Positions 25,296-55,931 of a stretch of 64,000 nucleotides of DNA are shown in pieces (the first letter of the stretch is position 1; the number at the start of each line of letters is the position of its first letter). A model generated the notes under the pieces. That model saw only the letters and a list, made by a program, of their open reading frames with translations. It did not search any database and was not told the DNA's origin. Source of the stretch: a virus (taxonomy: Duplodnaviria > Heunggongvirae > Uroviricota > Caudoviricetes); IMG/VR virus record IMGVR_UViG_3300029415_000001; one strand, given 5' to 3'. The translations under genes and the position numbers were made by a program.

Positions 25296-26854
25296 TTCTG
25301 CACCTCGCAGCCTTCAATTTCAGCCACAATCGCATCAATATCTTTGCGCAATTGGTCGATTTTGCTGACCGTGGTTTTCAGCTCTGCATTCAACTCAGCG
25401 ATATCGATAATTTCGCGAGTATCTTTCGCTTCCACATAGCTGCTCACCGACAGGTTATAGTCATTAGCGACAACGGTCTCAAACGCGACAGATTTCGCCA
25501 GATGAGCAACATCTTCCTTGCTGGCAAATACCTGCATAATCTGGTCGATATGGGCATCGGTCAGGATATTGTTGTTAGTCTCTTTTTTGAACAGTTCGCT
25601 GGCGTCAATAAACTGAACGTTGGTATCCGTTTTATGTTTAGACAGAACCAGAATGTTTACGGCAATGGTGGTGCCAAAGAACAGGTTCGGAGCCAGTGAA
25701 ATCACGGTTTCGACATAGTTATTGTCAACCAGATACTGACGGATTTTCTGCTCCGCGCCGCCACGGTAAAAAATACCCGGGAAGCAGACAATCGCAGCAC
25801 GACCTTTGGCCGAAAGATAATTCAGTGCATGTAGTACAAAGGCGAAGTCAGCTTTTGATTTGGGGGCCAGAACGCCAGCCGGGGCAAAACGCTCATCGTT
25901 AATCAGCGTCGGGTCATCGCTGCCAATCCATTTCACCGAATACGGCGGGTTAGAAACGATGGCATCAAACGGTTTTTCATCTCTGAAGTGCGGTTCAGTC
26001 AGCGTATTGCCCAGCTTGATATCAAACTTGTCGTAGTTGATGTTGTGCAAAAACATGTTCATACGCGCCAGGTTATAGGTCGTATGGTTGATTTCCTGAC
26101 CAAAAAAACCTTCTTCGATGATATGGTCATCAAACTGTTTTTTCGCCTGCAACAACAGCGAACCGGAGCCTGCTGCCGGGTCGTAGATTTTGTTAACGTT
26201 GGTCTGCCCGTGCATAGCCAGTTGTGCAATCAGCTTAGAGACGTGCTGCGGTGTAAAGAACTCGCCGCCGGACTTACCGGCATTCGCCGCATAGTTAGAA
26301 ATCAGGAACTCATAGGCATCGCCGAACAGGTCAATCTGATGTTCGTGGAAGTCACCAAGTTTTAGCCCTTCAACCCCTTTCAGAACCGCAGCCAGGCGGG
26401 CATTTTTATCTTTAACGGTGTTACCCAGGCGGTTACTGGTAGTATCGAAATCAGCAAACAAACCTTTGATGTCAGCTTCTGAAGGGTAACCGTAAGCAGA
26501 ACTTTCGATAGCAACGAAGATGCTGTTTAAATCCGCATTCAGTCTGTCATTGGTATTTGCTTTCGCAGCTACGTTGCAGAAAAGCTGACTGGGGTAGATG
26601 AAGTAGCCTTTGGTTCTGATGGCATCGTCTTTAATGTCATCAGTAATAATGCCGTCATCAAGTGCCGCATAACAGATGCTGTCATCACCATTTTCCATAT
26701 AACTGGAAAAATTTTCGCTGATAAAACGGTAGAAAAGTGCGCCCAGAACGTATTGCTTAAAATCCCATCCATCGACAGAACCTCTGACATCGTTAGCAAT
26801 TTGCCAGATTTGACGATGAAGCTCTGCACGTTGTTGAATACTTGTCATTTTCAT
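25292..26854 (-). CDS. hsdM: Type I methyltransferase subunit (HsdM), EcoR124-family
   Basis: 520 aa; NPPY motif (IVSNPPYS), AdoMet motif ([10 protein letters not shown]); near-identical to EcoR124I HsdM as recalled; 4-nt overlap with hsdS. Confidence 0.9.
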
Positions 26855-32530: not shown

Positions 32531-32752
32531 ATGGCTACTATCCCTACCCCAACTCATCCTGAATTTATCTGGCGCTTTTACTCCTGCCAAAAACGTCACT
32601 ATCACTTCGTTATTGCACCGACAGAAGATGAGGCCCGCTCTCAGCTTCCTGACGCCCCATGTATTTTCTCTGCCCGTTTTTCCACTGATTCACGCAATTC
32701 TCTCAGTTACTGGTGCCTCCCTGTTAACGCTTCTGCTCAGGAGGGACTATGA
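32531..32752 (+). CDS. Icd-like small protein (73 aa; cell-division-inhibitor family)
   Basis: ATG 32531 with TAAGGAGG RBS; pattern FIWRF...EDEARSQLPDAP...ARF typical of Icd-like proteins; track shows it inside a longer ORF 32303-32752. Confidence 0.55.
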   Translation: MATIPTPTHPEFIWRFYSCQKRHYHFVIAPTEDEARSQLPDAPCIFSARFSTDSRNSLSYWCLPVNASAQEGL

Positions 32753-33867
32753 GAACGTCATTAGTCACCCGTGAAGAGATGATCGAGGCAATTGAACAGC
32801 ACACTGCCTGTATCAGTACCAGGGATATACCAGGCGTTATTGCCAACTACTTCATGATCACCAAACAACTTTACCGGAGAAAGGACAAGAACGCGGTTCA
32901 CCGTATCCTGTTGTCTGATATCCGCGAATACCTGCTCGAACAGGGTCATCTGAATTACGTAACCGCCGCAGCCGAAGCACGCAAGGAGGCACACAGAATG
33001 AAAGCAACTAACGTTAAATCAGAAAAAATTCATGCACCTTCAGTTCAAGAATCGGAGCTGGTGGTTGTTCAGAATCAGTCTGATGAAATTCCCGTTCTGG
33101 AATGGCAGGGAGTGCGTGTAGTGACAACCGAGACTCTTGCTAGAGGGTATGGGACAGAAACAATCCGTATTCGCCAAAATCATCATGAGAACAAAGTACG
33201 CTTTGTTGAAGGGAAGCACTTTTTCAAAGTTGAAGGAGAATCATTGCGCGAGTTGAAGCACAGAGTAGCTTTAAACTACTCTGTAAAAATTGCTCGCAAT
33301 GTTCGCTCACTCACCCTCTGGACAGAACGCGGCGCAGCCCGCCACGCTAAAATGCTCGAAACCGATCAGGCATGGGCATTCTTTGAAAAACTGGAAGACA
33401 GCTACTTCCGACAAAAAGAACAGCAACCGATCGCAATCCCCCAGACGCTTCCTGAAGCCCTACGCCTGGCTGCCGAACTGGCTGAACAAAAGCAACTTCT
33501 GGAACAGAAAGCCCACCAGCTAAATCAGCAGCTGGTGGCCGCCGCTCCTAAAGTCGATTTTGCCGACCGGGTATCAGTAGCTAAAGGGATCCTGATTGGG
33601 AATTTTGCAAAGGTTGTTGGACTTAAACAAAACGCGCTGTTTGTCTGGTTACGGGAGAACGGCATCCTGATAGCGTCCGGTGGACGTAAAAATGTGCCGT
33701 TCCAGCAGTACATCAACGCGGGGTATTTCACGGTGAAAGAAGTGGTGCTGGATGATGAAGATGGCTACCAGATACGGTTGACGCCTCAATTAACGGGTAA
33801 AGGCCAGCAGTGGTTGACGCGTAAACTGCTCGATGCTGGCTTGTTAAAACCGGTGGCGGCTGAATAA
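32749..33867 (+). CDS. antirepressor-like protein (Bro-N/ORF6N-like plus KilA-C/Ant C-terminal domain), with strong internal RBS and ATG at 32998 (possible shorter in-frame product)
   Basis: 372 aa; C-terminal ...FADRVSVAKGILIGNFAKVVGLKQNALFVWLRENGILI... KilAC motif; internal AAGGAGG-9-ATG. Confidence 0.65.
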   Translation: MRTSLVTREEMIEAIEQHTACISTRDIPGVIANYFMITKQLYRRKDKNAVHRILLSDIREYLLEQGHLNYVTAAAEARKEAHRMKATNVKSEKIHAPSVQESELVVVQNQSDEIPVLEWQGVRVVTTETLARGYGTETIRIRQNHHENKVRFVEGKHFFKVEGESLRELKHRVALNYSVKIARNVRSLTLWTERGAARHAKMLETDQAWAFFEKLEDSYFRQKEQQPIAIPQTLPEALRLAAELAEQKQLLEQKAHQLNQQLVAAAPKVDFADRVSVAKGILIGNFAKVVGLKQNALFVWLRENGILIASGGRKNVPFQQYINAGYFTVKEVVLDDEDGYQIRLTPQLTGKGQQWLTRKLLDAGLLKPVAAE

Positions 33868-33899: not shown

Positions 33900-34751
33900 T
33901 TATTGCGCGCTTTCGGGGTTGTCGTTTACTGGCTGCCCCTTCTTGGTTTTACGGCTGCGCGTAACTGATGCGGCTGACTTAACCTTTTTCTCTTCGCGAG
34001 TGATGGCAATTTGTTTTTTTACATTTTCAATATCTGCCAGGCGATATATTTTTGCTTGCGGCCAGCGGTCGCAGATGATCGGTTCTATGGAGTCATAAAG
34101 GCTAAATTTTGCTTTTTCGAATTCACCGTTGATGATAATTCCATCACGGAGAGTTTCATCGCAGATAAACACGCCACACAGTGGCACATGGTAACTAACT
34201 GATTTACCATCATTGTAGTTAGGGCTACTGGAAATGTAGTGGACGCGCAGCATTGTTTCGCTAAAGCCGTGTACGCGCATACGGAATTTTTCATCCTCCG
34301 GGTACTGCCTCATTAGCTCTTTTGTTGCTTCCAGGTTCTCTATGTATTTCGCACTGTGCTCATTGAGCCCCGCGCTTTTTTGGATGCGAATGTCCTTATC
34401 AATCAGATGAATAATGCGGCCAGCGGTCATGTTGACGCTGTTCACAGCTTCTGTCTGATAAGTTGTAACCTTACGTACACCGCGAAGGATGTTAGGCACT
34501 GGATATAAAATAGTCTTTGGGATATTGAGGTCTGGGTACTGTTCCAGTTCCCGCGCCATTAAAGTCCATTTATCAATTTCAGCCTGAATGCTGTCAGTTT
34601 CTTTGAACGGTAGAACGACAACCGGGCGTACAGGACGACCGTCGCTGGCTGTATCAACGTGTTGGGCGCGTGCAACAGCTTTTTTTAGAAAGAGATCCCT
34701 GAAGCTGACGAACTCCTGGTACAGTTGTTCGCCGTAGACATAATTTATCAT
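33900..34751 (-). CDS. c1: C1 repressor of lysis
   Basis: 283 aa matching P1 C1 as recalled (MINYVYGEQLYQEFVSFRDLFLKKAVARAQHV...); operators nearby. Confidence 0.95.
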   Translation of the reverse strand: MINYVYGEQLYQEFVSFRDLFLKKAVARAQHVDTASDGRPVRPVVVLPFKETDSIQAEIDKWTLMARELEQYPDLNIPKTILYPVPNILRGVRKVTTYQTEAVNSVNMTAGRIIHLIDKDIRIQKSAGLNEHSAKYIENLEATKELMRQYPEDEKFRMRVHGFSETMLRVHYISSSPNYNDGKSVSYHVPLCGVFICDETLRDGIIINGEFEKAKFSLYDSIEPIICDRWPQAKIYRLADIENVKKQIAITREEKKVKSAASVTRSRKTKKGQPVNDNPESAQ

Positions 34752-38992: not shown

Positions 38993-40300
38993 ATGAGCGA
39001 ATATGTTGAGTTAGCATACGCTGCCGCTACAAGCAGGCTTTGTCTATTTACCGGGACTGGCTTTTCAAAGGCAGTCTCGAACGGTGAAGCTCCAACGTGG
39101 AAGGAACTATTAAAAAAAGTTTGCAGCAAAGTTCACAATGCCAAAAAGTTGGAAGACACGTTATTCCCTGATGATAAACCACCAGCACTGAGTCTTGAAG
39201 AAGCCGCACAAATACTATCTTTGAAGCTCAATATTGAGGGTAAGTCGATTTATGATGAAATTGTTGACATCATATCTCCAATTCAACTTGGAGAAGGTAT
39301 ATCAAATATAAAAGACTTTTTCCAAAAAAACTCATTCCGTGTCATTACAACAAATTATGACAAATTGGCTGAATGCTTGGTTGGAGATGAGAGAGTTCAG
39401 TCTATCACTCCAGGATTACCAGTTCCGAAGTATCGTTCTAATGTGAAAATATATCATGTTCATGGCTCTATTGACTCACCAAAAAATATGGTTGTCACTT
39501 CTGAAGACTACTTTAGGTTTATAAACTCTAACACTTATTTTTCACGAAAACTGAGTACAATGCTGCATGAAAATACAGTTGCGATATTAGGATATTCTTT
39601 AAGCGACACAAACCTTAAAGCAATTATAAATGATTACAAAACCTTCTCGAAAGGTAATGCGCTATGCTCTAATATATTTTTCATTTCTCGCAGCAAAGTA
39701 AGCCAAGACATGAAGGATTATTATTTTTATTGTTTTGGGATACGAGTAATTGATAAAACTGAAATAGATTGTTTCTTTGAGCGTCTGAGTAGTAAAATGG
39801 TGTTGATTGAAGACATCATGGCAAGAGCCAGAGAAAGTATAAAAAGAGTTGTTTCAGGGGCTTTTAACTATAGGGATGAATATCTCAAATTAGAGGATTC
39901 TTTTTACCAAATAACATCTTCTATTATGTCGGAAGGTTTCGATTGGAGTGACAATAAAGTTGTTGGTTTTTTTAAAAGGCTAATCGAACAAAAAAGAGAA
40001 TTAACAAGAAAAGATGGGGCGTGGGAACAATATGAGCATCTTGCAAAATGGCTCATATATTTTGGAAGCATCATAGAAATTACTGACACTAAGTATGAAA
40101 ATGTATATTTAGAGGCAGTCGAATACTCAATGTCCAATATGAGCAAAGAAAGGCGGTTAGGTTATTCGTGGCATGCTTATAGAGCTTGGGAAACGCGATG
40201 GTCTTCAATCATTGCTTCAAATCGATTAATTATAAAAAAACACATCGAAGACCTTGGCGTGCTGGATGACGCCAATTCTATAGTGAAAAATATAGTGTAA
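38993..40300 (+). CDS. SIR2-like (SIR2_2 / DHS-like NAD-binding) domain protein, standalone, 435 aa; candidate NAD-depleting defence effector
   Basis: Motifs LFTGTGFS (GAGxS-like), VITTNYD (catalytic Asn), KIYHVHGS (catalytic His); ATG with GGAG RBS; gene visibly AT-rich relative to flanks; sits between mat and lxc. Confidence 0.75.
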   Translation: MSEYVELAYAAATSRLCLFTGTGFSKAVSNGEAPTWKELLKKVCSKVHNAKKLEDTLFPDDKPPALSLEEAAQILSLKLNIEGKSIYDEIVDIISPIQLGEGISNIKDFFQKNSFRVITTNYDKLAECLVGDERVQSITPGLPVPKYRSNVKIYHVHGSIDSPKNMVVTSEDYFRFINSNTYFSRKLSTMLHENTVAILGYSLSDTNLKAIINDYKTFSKGNALCSNIFFISRSKVSQDMKDYYFYCFGIRVIDKTEIDCFFERLSSKMVLIEDIMARARESIKRVVSGAFNYRDEYLKLEDSFYQITSSIMSEGFDWSDNKVVGFFKRLIEQKRELTRKDGAWEQYEHLAKWLIYFGSIIEITDTKYENVYLEAVEYSMSNMSKERRLGYSWHAYRAWETRWSSIIASNRLIIKKHIEDLGVLDDANSIVKNIV

Positions 40301-51653: not shown

Positions 51654-52142
51654 GTGGCACAACGCGGTGTAAACAAAGTCATCCTGATTGGTACCCTGGG
51701 ACAAGACCCAGATATCAGGTATATACCAAATGGCGGAGCAGTCGGAAGACTCAGCATCGCAACGAATGAATCATGGCGCGACAAGCAAACAGGCAAACAG
51801 AAAGAGCAAACAGAATGGCATAAAGTCATTTTGTTCGGAAAAATTGCTGAAATTACGAGTGAATATTTACGAAAAGGTTCTCAGGTCTACATCGAAGGGA
51901 AACTTAAAACCCGTAAGTGGACAGATGATGCCGGTGTAGAACGTTACACGACGGAAATTATCGTCAGCCAGGGCGGCACTATGCAAATGATCGGCGCTCG
52001 CCGCGACGATTCACAATTCTCAAATGGCTGGGGGCAGTCAAACCAACCTCAAAACCACCAGCAATACAGCGGTGGCGGTAAACCTCAGAGCAACGCCAAT
52101 AGCGAACCTCCAATGGACTTTGAAGACGATATTCCATTTTGA
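51654..52142 (+). CDS. ssb: single-stranded DNA-binding protein
   Basis: OB-fold SSB ([20 protein letters not shown]), Gly/Gln-rich linker, acidic C-terminal DDIPF tail; GTG start. Confidence 0.95.
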
Positions 52143-53366
52143 GAGGGCTGAAAGTTGCTCGATTACTTAAAAATAACTTTACCTAATTGGTGTAAAAAAA
52201 TGGGCGCAACAAAGCGCCCCAACAATAGAGTTTCAAATTAATAAAAAGGTAATAAATAACATGAAGTTAAATTGAGAAGAGGCAATTTTATTGCCTCTTC
52301 AAAGGTGGCATGAGGGTGCCACCTATATGCGGGCAGTGACATCACTCCCTTCCCGCATATTCTTACCTACCAAAATTAGAATTGGTAGGTCATACCAACA
52401 GCAACGATGTTGTCGGTTGCAACGCCAGATTTTTTGGTAAAATCACTTTCATCGATCAGGTTGATCTTATAGTCAACGAAAGTGGACATATTCTTGTTAA
52501 AGTAATAAGTCGCGCCCACGTCGATGTATTCAACCAGATCCTGGTTACCGAACGCACCAATATTTTCACCGCGAGAGTGTAGGTAAGCGATGGACGGACG
52601 CAGGCCGAAATCAAACTGGTATTGAGCAACGGCTTCAAAGTTTTTCGCCTTGTTCGCGATATGGTCATCACCGAAGACTGTCATATTCTGAGTTTCAGAA
52701 TAAGTTGTAGCCAGGTAAATGTTGTTTGCATCATATTTCAGGCCCGTAGCCCATACTTCAGCAGTTTTACCAGAGGCATTCAGAGGGCTGGCTTTAGCAT
52801 AGGATACCTGTCCATCAGTACGGTCAGATTTTGCATAGGTTGCAGCAACGCCAAATCCTTCATAATCGTAAGTAGCTGACAGACCAAAGCCATCACCATT
52901 AGATTCAACTTCGTCGCGGCCTTTCCAGTTGTTCACTTTTGCAGCACTATCATTTTTACCTTGATACTGCAAAGCAAAGTTCAGACCATCAACCAAGCCG
53001 AAGAAATTATTGTTACGATAGGTCGCGACGCCAGTAGCACGCTGGGTCATAAATACATCAGTCTGAGTCCAGGTATCTCCACCAAACTCCGGCAGCACGT
53101 CAGTCCAAGCGCCAACATCATAAGCTACACCGTAGTTGCGACCATAGTCGAGCGAACCATAATCGCCAAAGCGAAGCCCTGCAAACGCAAGACGAGTTTT
53201 ATCTTTATCAGAACCTTCAGTTTCAGAACGGTTACCTTTAAATTCGTACTCCCACTGACCAAAACCGGTTAACTGGTCATTAATCTGAGTTTCACCTTTG
53301 AAACCCATACGAGCATAAGTTTTATCCCCGTCATCACTAGCCGAAGAAGAGAAGTAATGCTCTGCA

Positions 53367-54695
53367 CTGATGAATCCCCTAATGATTTTGGTAAAAATCA
53401 TTAAGTTAAGGTGGATACACATCTTGTCATATGATCAAATGGTTTCGCGAAAAATCAATAATCAGACAACAAGATGTGCGAACTCGATATTTTACACGAC
53501 TCTCTTTACCAATTCTGCCCCGAATTACACTTAAAACGACTCAACAGCTTAACGTTGGCTTGCCACGCATTACTTGACTGTAAAACTCTCACTCTTACCG
53601 AACTTGGCCGTAACCTGCCAACCAAAGCGAGAACAAAACATAACATCAAACGAATCGACCGATTGTTAGGTAATCGTCACCTCCACAAAGAGCGACTCGC
53701 TGTATACCGTTGGCATGCTAGCTTTATCTGTTCGGGCAATACGATGCCCATTGTACTTGTTGACTGGTCTGATATTCGTGAGCAAAAACGACTTATGGTA
53801 TTGCGAGCTTCAGTCGCACTACACGGTCGTTCTGTTACTCTTTATGAGAAAGCGTTCCCGCTTTCAGAGCAATGTTCAAAGAAAGCTCATGACCAATTTC
53901 TAGCCGACCTTGCGAGCATTCTACCGAGTAACACCACACCGCTCATTGTCAGTGATGCTGGCTTTAAAGTGCCATGGTATAAATCCGTTGAGAAGCTGGG
54001 TTGGTACTGGTTAAGTCGAGTAAGAGGAAAAGTACAATATGCAGACCTAGGAGCGGAAAACTGGAAACCTATCAGCAACTTACATGATATGTCATCTAGT
54101 CACTCAAAGACTTTAGGCTATAAGAGGCTGACTAAAAGCAATCCAATCTCATGCCAAATTCTATTGTATAAATCTCGCTCTAAAGGCCGAAAAAATCAGC
54201 GCTCGACACGGACTCATTGTCACCACCCGTCACCTAAAATCTACTCAGCGTCGGCAAAGGAGCCATGGGTTCTAGCAACTAACTTACCTGTTGAAATTCG
54301 AACACCCAAACAACTTGTTAATATCTATTCGAAGCGAATGCAGATTGAAGAAACCTTCCGAGACTTGAAAAGTCCTGCCTACGGACTAGGCCTACGCCAT
54401 AGCCGAACGAGCAGCTCAGAGCGTTTTGATATCATGCTGCTAATCGCCCTGATGCTTCAACTAACATGTTGGCTTGCGGGCGTTCATGCTCAGAAACAAG
54501 GTTGGGACAAGCACTTCCAGGCTAACACAGTCAGAAATCGAAACGTACTCTCAACAGTTCGCTTAGGCATGGAAGTTTTGCGGCATTCTGGCTACACAAT
54601 AACAAGGGAAGACTTACTCGTGGCTGCAACCCTACTAGCTCAAAATTTATTCACACATGGTTACGCTTTGGGGAAATTATGAGGGGATCTCTCAG
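53367..54695 (+). mobile_element. IS10 (1329 bp) with 9-bp target-site duplication TGCTCTGCA
   Basis: Ends CTGATGAATCCCCTAATGATTTT and ...GAGGGGATCTCTCAG; identical 9-mer at 53358-53366 and 54696-54704. Confidence 0.97.
53474..54682 (+). CDS. IS10 transposase
   Basis: 402 aa beginning MCELDILHDSLYQFCPELHLKRLNSLTLACHALLDCKTLTLTELGRNL. Confidence 0.97.
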   Translation: MCELDILHDSLYQFCPELHLKRLNSLTLACHALLDCKTLTLTELGRNLPTKARTKHNIKRIDRLLGNRHLHKERLAVYRWHASFICSGNTMPIVLVDWSDIREQKRLMVLRASVALHGRSVTLYEKAFPLSEQCSKKAHDQFLADLASILPSNTTPLIVSDAGFKVPWYKSVEKLGWYWLSRVRGKVQYADLGAENWKPISNLHDMSSSHSKTLGYKRLTKSNPISCQILLYKSRSKGRKNQRSTRTHCHHPSPKIYSASAKEPWVLATNLPVEIRTPKQLVNIYSKRMQIEETFRDLKSPAYGLGLRHSRTSSSERFDIMLLIALMLQLTCWLAGVHAQKQGWDKHFQANTVRNRNVLSTVRLGMEVLRHSGYTITREDLLVAATLLAQNLFTHGYALGKL

Positions 54696-55062
54696 TGCTC
54701 TGCATTAACTTTGCCGTACAGATCCAGTTTGTTACCGTCTTTGTTATAGATTTCTGCCGCTTGTGCAGACATTGCCATCAGAACAGATGCTGCAACCGTA
54801 GAAAGTGCCACTGTAATTTTTTTCATTTTTTTTCCTTTAGATTGAACTTTTCAACAGAAAAGAAGTCACTTAGGGGAGATGTTTATCTTTTTTTGATTTA
54901 CATTTCAAGTTTTTTAAATAAATATCGAGATATTTTCGTGATCAGGATCACAAAAACACCATTGCAAACCAATTAATTATTAGGATGGTATTAATAATAT
55001 AGAGTAAAAAATAACACTAAGGCCAAATCGCAACCAGAAACAACAGCGCAGTATAAAACACG

Positions 55063-55831
55063 GGTAGTGCATCCAATTAGTAGAACATGTGTTTTTCGAT
55101 AAACGCTCCGATCACTTTTTCGTGGATCTCAACTGAGCGTGAGAAGCAGATTGTTTTTTACGAGCCAACTGCTTAATGCGGGTGCGTAGCGTCAGATTAT
55201 TACGCTCAATGCGTTGGGTGAATATTTTGCCGGTCAGATGCTTATTCTTCGCCCCCCCCCCGGCCATAGCTGCCCCTGTCATCGCTGGTGAGCATGCCGA
55301 TGTTGAAGGGTGTAAGCAGTGCCAGTAGCTCCCGGCACGCTTGATCGGTTCGGGGACCAAAAGTGTAGGCCAGTACACCGCCTGTTTTGGTGTTGTACGC
55401 GTACCAGAGCCAGTGTTGCCGGGCTTTACTGCCAACGTAGCTCCATTGCTCATCAAGCTCGCAGATAAGCGCCACATCAGCATGGGCAACAGGAGAAGAA
55501 GTTATTCGCGTTGGCGCGAGTTTTTTAAAGTCCGGATGACGGTGCTAATACCAATTTTCAGTGTCCTGGCGGTATCGCGAACCCCGGCACCATTAAAGGC
55601 CATTTCAGTGATCAGCTCTTTCATACCCGGCTTACGTGCTTGATAAGTATAAGTGAGCTGAAACACACGGTGGCAGTCACGGCAGCGAAATCTGTCACGG
55701 CCTTTAGGGTTCTGACCATGGCGGTAAACCCGAGCTAACTGACAACGGGGACAATGAATATTAACGCTGGCTATGAGATAACCTCAAAAGCCCATATTAT
55801 ACATCAGATTCAACTAATTAGAGGCATCACC
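55063..55831 (-). mobile_element. IS1-family element (769 bp), divergent and probably inactive
   Basis: InsA-like frame (…SVNIHCPRCQ…VRDTARTLKIGI…) begins with ATA not ATG; InsB-like frames (MALICELDEQW..., ...YTQRIERNNL...) split by a C10 tract at 55251-55261; imperfect terminal IRs GGTAGTGCATCCAATTAG / GGTGATGCCTCTAATTAG; no clean TSD found. Confidence 0.8.
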
Positions 55832-55931
55832 AGAAATGGCTTGCTTCCATAGCCTAAAGCAAGCCACAACACATTTACCTTAAGTACACAATTAACATAC
55901 CAGAACAGATTATTTTTGCACAATCAGGGAG

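What the first reader, a model, noticed from the sequence alone, without database searches (positions are those of the whole stretch)
52376..54826. Phage-borne Lc/NmpC/OmpD-type porin gene inactivated by a clean IS10 insertion
A 370-aa general porin gene sits just downstream of ssb. An intact 1329-bp IS10 with a perfect 9-bp duplication (TGCTCTGCA) splits it after codon 41, separating the signal peptide and first strand from the barrel. The lc-type porin is a known lysogenic-conversion gene in lambdoid phages; I do not recall it in P1. The insertion is recent, since the TSD is perfect and the gene is otherwise intact.
Basis: partly seen in the sequence, partly recalled or inferred. Interest (0 to 1): 0.55.

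Follow-up and report, generated by a model that had tools for sequence, protein, structure and literature searches.

The report
IS10-disrupted nmpC porin, P7-like plasmid
A P1/P7-family phage-plasmid carries the NmpC-type porin gene found in about a quarter of this family, knocked out by an IS10 insertion at a spot IS10 has hit many times before; this is real but ordinary and already published for a sister plasmid.

Summary
A 1329-bp IS10 (53367-54695) is flanked by a perfect 9-bp duplication, TGCTCTGCA. It splits a minus-strand porin gene (52376-54826). Removing the IS and one repeat copy restores an intact 370-aa OmpC-subfamily porin.

P1 itself lacks it, but phage P7 carries it as annotated nmpC in the same ssb-to-hxr slot. 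So do 118 PLSDB plasmids, against 502 that carry the P1-type lyz-ssb backbone.

The nearest relative, pRHB16-C13_3, has the empty site and differs by 1 nt in the gene. The insertion is therefore recent.

The same event, with the same repeat, was published for pSvP1 (Venturini 2019). I found IS10 at this exact site in all 10 full-length copies examined (the window plus 9 fetched loci). They cover both orientations, several IS10 sequence variants, P1-like plasmids and chromosomal nmpC, giving at least 9 independent events. The site resembles the IS10 target consensus NGCTNAGCN.

Verdict: a null allele of a known accessory gene, made by a known element at a recurrent target. Low interest.

The parts
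54696..54826 (-). nmpC 5' fragment: start codon, 23-aa signal peptide and the first 21 mature residues (codons 1-44); the ORF ends at a TGA inside the IS10 inside end (ORF 54692-54826)
   Evidence: signal peptide length taken from the P7 nmpC annotation (69 nt)
54696..54704 (.). right copy of the 9-bp target-site duplication TGCTCTGCA
53367..54695 (+). IS10 (IS10R-type, 1329 bp), outside end at 53367, inside end at 54695; Dam sites at IS positions 67 and 1320
   Evidence: 0 differences from the BM28, L005 and L014 copies; 99.9% to the annotated IS10 of phage CL707
53474..54682 (+). IS10 transposase, 402 aa, uninterrupted
   Evidence: NCBIfam NF033591 IS4-family transposase 404 bits; Pfam DDE_Tnp_1
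53412..53481 (-). RNA-OUT antisense RNA of IS10, transcribed towards the outside end, the same direction as the porin 3' fragment
   Evidence: Rfam RF00240, 98.8 bits against a gathering score of 41
53358..53366 (.). left copy of the 9-bp target-site duplication TGCTCTGCA
52376..53366 (-). nmpC 3' fragment (last base of codon 41, codons 42-370 and the stop): the beta-barrel without promoter or signal peptide. An in-frame ATG inside IS10 (53422) creates a 348-aa fusion ORF that lacks an export signal
   Evidence: Pfam Porin_1 494 bits and NCBIfam OmpC subfamily 532 bits on the rejoined protein
52202..52219 (.). G+C-rich hairpin with A/T runs on both sides, between the convergent ssb and nmpC genes; terminator-like
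   Evidence: consensus scan only
51654..52142 (+). ssb, left border of the variable cargo slot; homology to P1 ends at 52142
55063..55831 (.). divergent IS1-family element between the nmpC upstream region and the hxr/odaA homologue. It is context, not part of the IS10 event. Homology to P1 and P7 resumes at 55833-55835
   Evidence: sequence read (annotated as IS1-family transposase fragments in related plasmids)

Best explanation
The window is part of a P1/P7-family phage-plasmid. The variable slot between ssb and the hxr/odaA-ddrB-darA operon holds the P7-type accessory porin gene nmpC. This is an OmpC-subfamily general porin, about 81% identical to the NmpC of lambdoid prophage DLP12. A single IS10R copy transposed by cut-and-paste into codons 41-44. 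It made the staggered 9-bp cut that produces the TGCTCTGCA duplication. The target matches the IS10 consensus NGCTNAGCN at 5 of 6 specified positions and sits in a 15-bp near-palindrome, TAATGC-TCT-GCATTA. The insertion separates the promoter, start codon and signal peptide from the barrel. No exportable porin can be made, so this is a null allele. Phage and plasmid core functions are untouched because the gene is dispensable cargo. The event is recent and independent of the other IS10 insertions at this site. Shown: anatomy, reading-frame restoration, empty-site relative, recurrence of the site. Inferred: loss of function, dispensability, and site preference (not selection) as the main cause of recurrence.
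For: Anatomy and frame restoration. Family assignments. P1-family backbone: the window is collinear with P7 at 95-98.5% identity over its major collinear blocks, 48.4 of 64 kb. Same slot: P7 has ssb, nmpC, odaA, prt, darA; P1 has ssb, isaA, IS1, isaB, hxr, ddrB. Empty site: CP057733 is 99.92% and 99.85% identical on the two flanks, has one copy of TGCTCTGCA, and its porin differs by 1 nt / 1 aa. Recurrence: all 10 full-length IS10 copies examined (the window plus 9 fetched loci) share the homologous 9-bp site, with TGCTCTGCA in P1-like plasmids and TGCTTAGCA in chromosomal nmpC. Both orientations occur, and the IS10 copies differ by 0-16 nt. An eleventh case, an IMG/VR contig cut inside IS10, has the same junction. 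In complete E. coli genomes, 8 records have the window's orientation and 5-7 the inverted one. Independence: the only plasmid with the same orientation (CP101271) has an IS10 that differs at 7 positions and flanks only about 97.3% identical. Site preference without selection: in the K-12 derivative BM28, nmpC was already dead through IS5, yet IS10R landed at codon 44. Consensus GCTNAGC: Bender and Kleckner 1992, as cited in PMC10044804.
Against: Loss of function is inferred from the sequence only. pOUT/RNA-OUT faces the 3' fragment and an in-frame ATG exists at 53422, so a cytoplasmic fusion product cannot be excluded. Its N-terminus ([17 protein letters not shown]...) has no recognisable signal peptide. 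The site is only one of 261 one-mismatch consensus sites in the window, which also has 18 perfect sites. Consensus match alone therefore does not explain why this site is hit repeatedly. Sequence context or tolerance of insertions in a dispensable gene must add to it, and I did not separate the two. The source record was not found in any collection searched, so the host and other IS10/Tn10 copies are unknown.
Confidence: 0.9

Rival explanations
1. The interrupted allele was not created in this lineage. It was acquired ready-made by homologous recombination from another nmpC::IS10-bearing P1-like plasmid or prophage.
For: nmpC::IS10 alleles with the same duplication circulate in P1-like plasmids. 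P1-like elements are mosaic (gaps relative to P7).
Against: The porin halves on both sides of the IS are 99.9% identical to the empty-site plasmid CP057733. They are only about 97% identical to the one same-orientation carrier, CP101271, whose IS10 also differs at 7 of 1329 positions. The other plasmid carriers have the IS inverted. No imported tract is visible.
Confidence: 0.07
2. The IS10 copy is a laboratory or assembly artefact: a hop from a Tn10-bearing laboratory host during propagation or cloning, or a mis-assembly that placed an IS10 read pile at a consensus-like site.
For: The IS10 is 100% identical to IS10R of a Tn10-carrying laboratory K-12 derivative. IS10 moves readily in such strains: BM28 has 15 extra copies.
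Against: The same IS10 sequence also occurs in natural isolates (L005 human faeces, L014 gut). Both junctions are exact with a perfect 9-bp duplication, which a mis-assembly would not create. Natural isolates from humans, cattle and pigs show the same insertion.
Confidence: 0.04
3. Recurrence of IS insertions in this porin reflects positive selection for losing a plasmid-borne porin (lower permeability to antibiotics, or loss of a phage or colicin receptor), not an IS10 target preference.
For: Other IS types also hit the locus. An IS3-family element lies inside the gene in CP043218 and CP080139. IS1A or IS3 lie in the upstream region and IS5 downstream in AP018397 and CP034659. Several carriers are multidrug-resistant clinical isolates, for example mcr-1 lies next to the locus in L005.
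Against: Every IS10 uses exactly one 9-bp site out of a 1113-nt gene. That points to target choice, since selection for loss would accept any position. In BM28 the gene was already inactivated by IS5 when IS10R inserted there. Most plasmid copies look uninterrupted: 109 of 118 records align over at least 80% of the 1610-bp query, but that count can still include IS-split copies.
Confidence: 0.2

Closest known systems
nmpC of enterobacteria phage P7 (AF503408 / NC_050152, 'NmpC precursor')
   Same: Same locus (between ssb and odaA/hxr, convergent with ssb), same orientation, 95.8% nt and 96.5% aa identity, same signal peptide.
   Different: P7's copy is uninterrupted and 371 aa. P7 has no IS1-family element upstream of the gene. 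The upstream 290 bp are only about 88% identical.
nmpC::IS10 of P1-like plasmid pSvP1 (MN510446; Venturini et al. 2019, Sci Rep, PMC6906374)
   Same: Same gene, same 9-bp duplication TGCTCTGCA, same insertion point, IS10 differs by 1 nt.
   Different: The IS10 is in the opposite orientation, so it is a separate event. The backbone is about 96.5% identical to the window, and the porin 96.2%.
[quoted passage not shown]
   Same: Homologous porin, 78-82% aa identity. The homologous codon 41-44 site (TGCTTAGCA, a perfect IS10 consensus) is occupied by IS10 in at least 6 chromosomes examined, in both orientations, including the laboratory strain BM28 (PMC10044804).
   Different: Chromosomal, in lambdoid prophage or island context. 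In K-12 it is additionally truncated by IS5 near the 3' end.
Lc porin of lambdoid phage PA-2 (lysogenic conversion; from my own knowledge, not tested here)
   Same: A phage-borne general porin of the NmpC group carried as a non-essential cargo gene.
   Different: Lc is expressed from a lambdoid prophage and linked to exclusion through OmpC down-regulation. Nothing is known about expression or role of the P7-type gene; P1 is generally held to adsorb to lipopolysaccharide, not to a porin (own knowledge). No sequence comparison with Lc was made.
isaA-IS1-isaB segment of phage P1 (NC_005856)
   Same: Occupies the same variable slot. Homology between the window and P1 stops at the ssb stop codon and resumes just upstream of hxr.
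   Different: Unrelated cargo: no porin in P1; a canonical IS1 instead of the window's divergent IS1-family element.

Membership tests
IS10 (IS4 family insertion sequence, module of Tn10) | 1329-bp element with the characteristic outside and inside terminal sequences | tested here: met
   Exact OE and IE strings 1329 bp apart; 1329/1329 identity to IS10R copies of BM28; 99.9% to annotated IS10 of phage CL707
IS10 (IS4 family insertion sequence, module of Tn10) | Single 402-aa DDE transposase | tested here: met
   ORF 53474-54682; NF033591 404 bits against cut-off 152; PF01609 87 bits
IS10 (IS4 family insertion sequence, module of Tn10) | 9-bp target duplication at a site resembling NGCTNAGCN | tested here: met
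   Perfect 9-bp repeat TGCTCTGCA, 5 of 6 consensus positions; the homologous chromosomal site is a perfect match; consensus as cited in PMC10044804
IS10 (IS4 family insertion sequence, module of Tn10) | Antisense regulator RNA-OUT near the outside end, and Dam (GATC) sites at the transposase promoter and the inside end | tested here: met
   RF00240 98.8 bits at 53412-53481; GATC at IS positions 67 and 1320 only. Their regulatory role is from the literature, not tested
Enterobacterial general porin, OmpC subfamily / NmpC group | Full-length match to the Gram-negative porin family and the OmpC subfamily model above the curated cut-off | tested here: met
   PF00267 494 bits over residues 29-370; NF007841 532 bits against cut-off 484; the PhoE and OmpF equivalog models fall below their cut-offs
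Enterobacterial general porin, OmpC subfamily / NmpC group | Cleavable signal peptide, constriction-loop PEFGG motif, C-terminal aromatic residue | tested here: met
   Read from the rejoined sequence: [39 protein letters not shown]...TYQF; aligned end to end with the solved porins OmpK37 and OmpC
Enterobacterial general porin, OmpC subfamily / NmpC group | Closer to NmpC than to OmpC, OmpF or PhoE | tested here: met
   96.5% to P7 NmpC and 78-82% to DLP12-type NmpC. The alignments to OmpK37 and OmpC look clearly more divergent, but their identity was not computed. No comparison with Lc or OmpD was made
Enterobacterial general porin, OmpC subfamily / NmpC group | Forms a functional trimeric channel in the outer membrane | not testable with these tools
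   The present allele is split. The function of the intact P7-type allele has not been reported in the papers searched
P1-family phage-plasmid (Punavirus) | Collinear P1/P7 gene order and high nucleotide identity across the window | tested here: met
   48.4 of 64 kb align to P7, mostly at 95-98.5%, in P7 order: dam, ban, tail and head genes, pacAB, lox-cre, darB, pro, lyz, ssb, ddrB, darA, cin
Lysogenic-conversion gene (expressed from the prophage and changing host phenotype) | Expression in the lysogen and a host phenotype | not testable with these tools
   Only one weak sigma-70-like match, overlapping the start codon; no literature found on expression of P7 nmpC

The most novel reading that the evidence does not exclude
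The 15-bp near-palindrome TAATGCT-N-AGCATTA, encoding ...VNA(K/E)HY... in NmpC-type porin genes, may be an unusually strong natural IS10 target whose strength goes beyond the 6-bp consensus. It has been hit at least 9 separate times in plasmids, prophages and islands. If so, mobile porin genes of this type are systematically silenced wherever IS10/Tn10 spreads, with possible effects on permeability or phage sensitivity in resistant E. coli.
Probability: 0.3. Interest if true: 0.3.

Novelty: already known. Interest (0 to 1): 0.12.

Why it matters
It matters little on its own. It is one more example of IS traffic in the accessory slots of P1-like phage-plasmids. It is useful for annotation: the two porin pseudogene fragments that pipelines label 'porin' and 'phosphoporin PhoE' are one P7-type nmpC gene. 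The recurrence of one IS10 site across unrelated replicons is a neat natural illustration of Tn10 target specificity. It could serve as a marker of independent IS10 activity, but it opens no unresolved question.

Tried and rejected
1. Source search. No phage, plasmid or complete E. coli record holds this exact configuration of IS10 in this orientation plus the adjacent IS1-family element. An exact degenerate junction pattern found nothing in the GTDB species-representative genomes or the JGI metagenomes. It found one IMG/VR contig, which has the inverted, pSvP1-type arrangement.

2. Literature on the function or expression of P7 nmpC or porins of P1-like phage-plasmids: nothing relevant (one search failed on a short search term).

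3. 'IS5 or IS1 also disrupt the plasmid porin', which the feature lists suggested. On inspection, those IS copies in CP034659 and AP018397 flank an intact gene. Only the IS3-family insertion in CP043218 and CP080139 is inside the gene.

4. Composite Tn10: only one IS10 outside end and one inside end occur in the 64-kb window, so this is a solo IS10.

5. Promoter scan of the region: no more matches than in shuffled sequence (4 found against 6.2 expected), so no claim about nmpC expression is made.

6. My first excision used coordinates off by one base and gave a spurious N41S change. This was corrected.

7. Structure prediction and the large protein database searches were not run, because family, orthology and synteny were already unambiguous.

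Full report
**Observation**

Reading 51800-55400 and exact string searches show the following.
- The IS10 outside end CTGATGAATCCCCTAATGA starts at 53367.
- The inside end ...TTATGAGGGGATCTCTCAG stops at 54695, which makes exactly 1329 bp.
- TGCTCTGCA lies directly on both sides, at 53358-53366 and 54696-54704.

The minus strand holds a short ORF, 54692-54826, which reads [44 protein letters not shown] and then a stop. It also holds a long ORF ending at 52376.

Removing the IS and one repeat copy gives a 1113-nt, 370-aa open frame. My first attempt, was off by one base and was corrected. The duplication covers CDS nt 123-131, that is codons 41-44. The only nuance is that the porin gene is convergent with ssb (51654-52142, + strand) and not co-transcribed with it.

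**What the parts are**

- The rejoined protein matches Pfam Porin_1 over its full length (494 bits).
- It also matches the NCBIfam OmpC subfamily model above its cut-off (532 bits against 484). PhoE and OmpF score below their cut-offs.
- It aligns end to end with the solved porins OmpK37 and OmpC.
- It has the signal peptide, the PEFGG motif and the C-terminal YQF.
- The IS encodes an uninterrupted 402-aa IS4-family DDE transposase.
- The IS carries RNA-OUT at 53412-53481 (Rfam, 98.8 bits).
- The IS has GATC only at positions 67 and 1320.
- The IS is identical at all 1329 positions to the IS10R copies of the Tn10-bearing K-12 derivative BM28 and to copies in two natural isolates.
- Only one IS10 lies in the window.

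**Context**

The window aligns to phage P7 over 48.4 of 64 kb, mostly at 95-98.5% identity and in P7 gene order. It is therefore a P1-family phage-plasmid.

Homology to P1 ends at the ssb stop codon (52142) and resumes at 55833, just upstream of the hxr homologue. In that slot the three elements differ.
- P1 carries isaA-IS1-isaB.
- P7 carries an annotated 'NmpC precursor' gene in the same orientation. It is 95.8% identical in nucleotides and 96.5% in protein to the rejoined gene here.
- The window has the porin plus a divergent IS1-family element at about 55063-55831.

The porin segment is found in the following records.
- 118 PLSDB plasmids, against 502 that carry the P1-type lyz-ssb segment.
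- 4 of 19 phage records: two P7 records, JL22 and phi456.

It is thus a common alternative cargo of this phage family and not an oddity.

**Empty site and age**

Plasmid pRHB16-C13_3 (CP057733) is 99.92% identical on the left flank and 99.85% on the right, including the IS1-family element. It carries an uninterrupted porin with a single TGCTCTGCA. Its gene differs from the rejoined window gene by one nucleotide, A541C, which changes S181 to R. The insertion is therefore a simple, recent transposition into a pre-existing intact gene.

**Recurrence of the site**

A search with the whole interrupted region found the same arrangement elsewhere. I fetched nine such full-length copies and located the IS ends and flanks in each. 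With the window, that makes ten copies.

In all ten the IS10 occupies the homologous 9-bp site.
- P1-like plasmids have TGCTCTGCA: the window, pEC21Z048-103K, pSvP1 and p204A1-114K.
- Chromosomal nmpC genes have TGCTTAGCA. These lie in DLP12 prophages, a fliE-yedK island and a pathogenicity-island-like region.

An eleventh case, an IMG/VR contig cut inside IS10, shows the same junction.

Both orientations occur, and the IS10 copies differ from one another at 0-16 positions. Combining context, orientation and IS variant gives at least nine separate events.

The only plasmid with the window's orientation has an IS10 that differs at 7 positions and flanks about 97% identical. The window's event is therefore its own.

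In complete E. coli genomes, 8 records have the window's orientation and 5-7 the inverted one. This is out of about 6800 IS10 places in 1968 genomes. The site is a recurrent target but not a dominant one.

**Mechanism**

IS10 inserts by cut-and-paste with a 9-bp staggered cut and prefers NGCTNAGCN (Bender and Kleckner 1992, as cited in PMC10044804).
- The chromosomal nmpC site matches that consensus perfectly.
- The P1-type site has one mismatch, because codon 43 is GAG and not AAG.
- Both lie in a 15-bp near-palindrome (TAATGC...GCATTA), read directly from the sequence.

The pre-insertion window has 18 perfect and 261 one-mismatch sites. Repeated use of this one site therefore needs something beyond the consensus match. 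Candidates are flanking context and tolerance of insertions in a dispensable gene.

Two observations argue that target choice, not selection for porin loss, is the main cause.
- Every IS10 uses the same 9 bp out of a 1113-nt gene.
- In BM28 the gene was already inactivated by IS5 when IS10R landed at codon 44.

Selection may still contribute. An IS3-family element interrupts the gene in two other records, and IS1A, IS3 or IS5 sit beside it in others.

**Consequence**

The promoter, start codon, signal peptide and first 21 mature residues are separated from the barrel. RNA-OUT and its promoter point into the 3' fragment, and an in-frame ATG at 53422 creates a 348-aa fusion ORF. That product has no export signal, so I infer a null allele. 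This was not tested.

**Prior knowledge**

- Venturini et al. 2019 (PMC6906374) state that in pSvP1 'IS10 ... [quoted passage not shown]
- The BM28 paper lists an IS10R insertion in nmpC at codon 44 (PMC10044804).
- I found no paper on the function of P7 nmpC.

**Verdict**

The finding is a new instance, in the opposite orientation, of a published event in a known accessory gene. Interest is low.

Noticed in passing
window 55063-55831: A divergent IS1-family element (ends GGTAGTGCATCCAATTAGTAG... and ...CTAATTAGAGGCATCACC) lies between the nmpC upstream region and the hxr/odaA homologue. Its transposase frames look broken: only short InsA- and InsB-like ORFs remain, with a C-run at about 55250-55262. 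It is identical in CP057733, and related plasmids annotate it as IS1-family transposase fragments. It replaces 482 bp of P7 sequence.
   Followed up: partly
window 20801-26854 (minus strand): A complete type I restriction-modification operon, hsdM (25292-26854), hsdS (24039-25295) and hsdR (20801-23917), fills a 6.2-kb stretch with no P7 counterpart.
   Followed up: partly
window 38993-40300 (+ strand): A 435-aa protein with a SIR2-like domain (PF13289, 83 bits) sits where P1 and P7 carry the type III res-mod genes. The 5-kb res-mod segment is replaced by about 1.4 kb. It is possibly a different defence gene in the same slot.
   Followed up: no
window 32749-33867 (+ strand): A 372-aa protein with ORF6N and KilAC antirepressor domains lies in a stretch that mostly lacks a P7 counterpart; only its last ~330 bp match the P7 ant region, at 86.5%. 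The next ORF, 33900-34751 (283 aa), has no Pfam match.
   Followed up: no
L005 (NZ_CP070906.1) 10675-16394: In one chromosome with nmpC::IS10, an ISApl1-flanked mcr-1 composite transposon (with IS903B inside) lies immediately next to the interrupted porin.
   Followed up: no
L003 (NZ_CP101271.1) 232-1362; L006 (MN510446) 10794 onward: IS200/IS605-type TnpB (InsQ) genes are inserted between the head-processing genes or next to ddrB in other P1-like plasmids. This is further evidence that the region is IS-rich.
   Followed up: no
L016 / L017 porin codon 43: Some intact plasmid alleles (WP_112921217.1) carry E43K, the residue that lies inside the IS10 target. Target-site quality therefore varies among P1-type alleles.
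   Followed up: no
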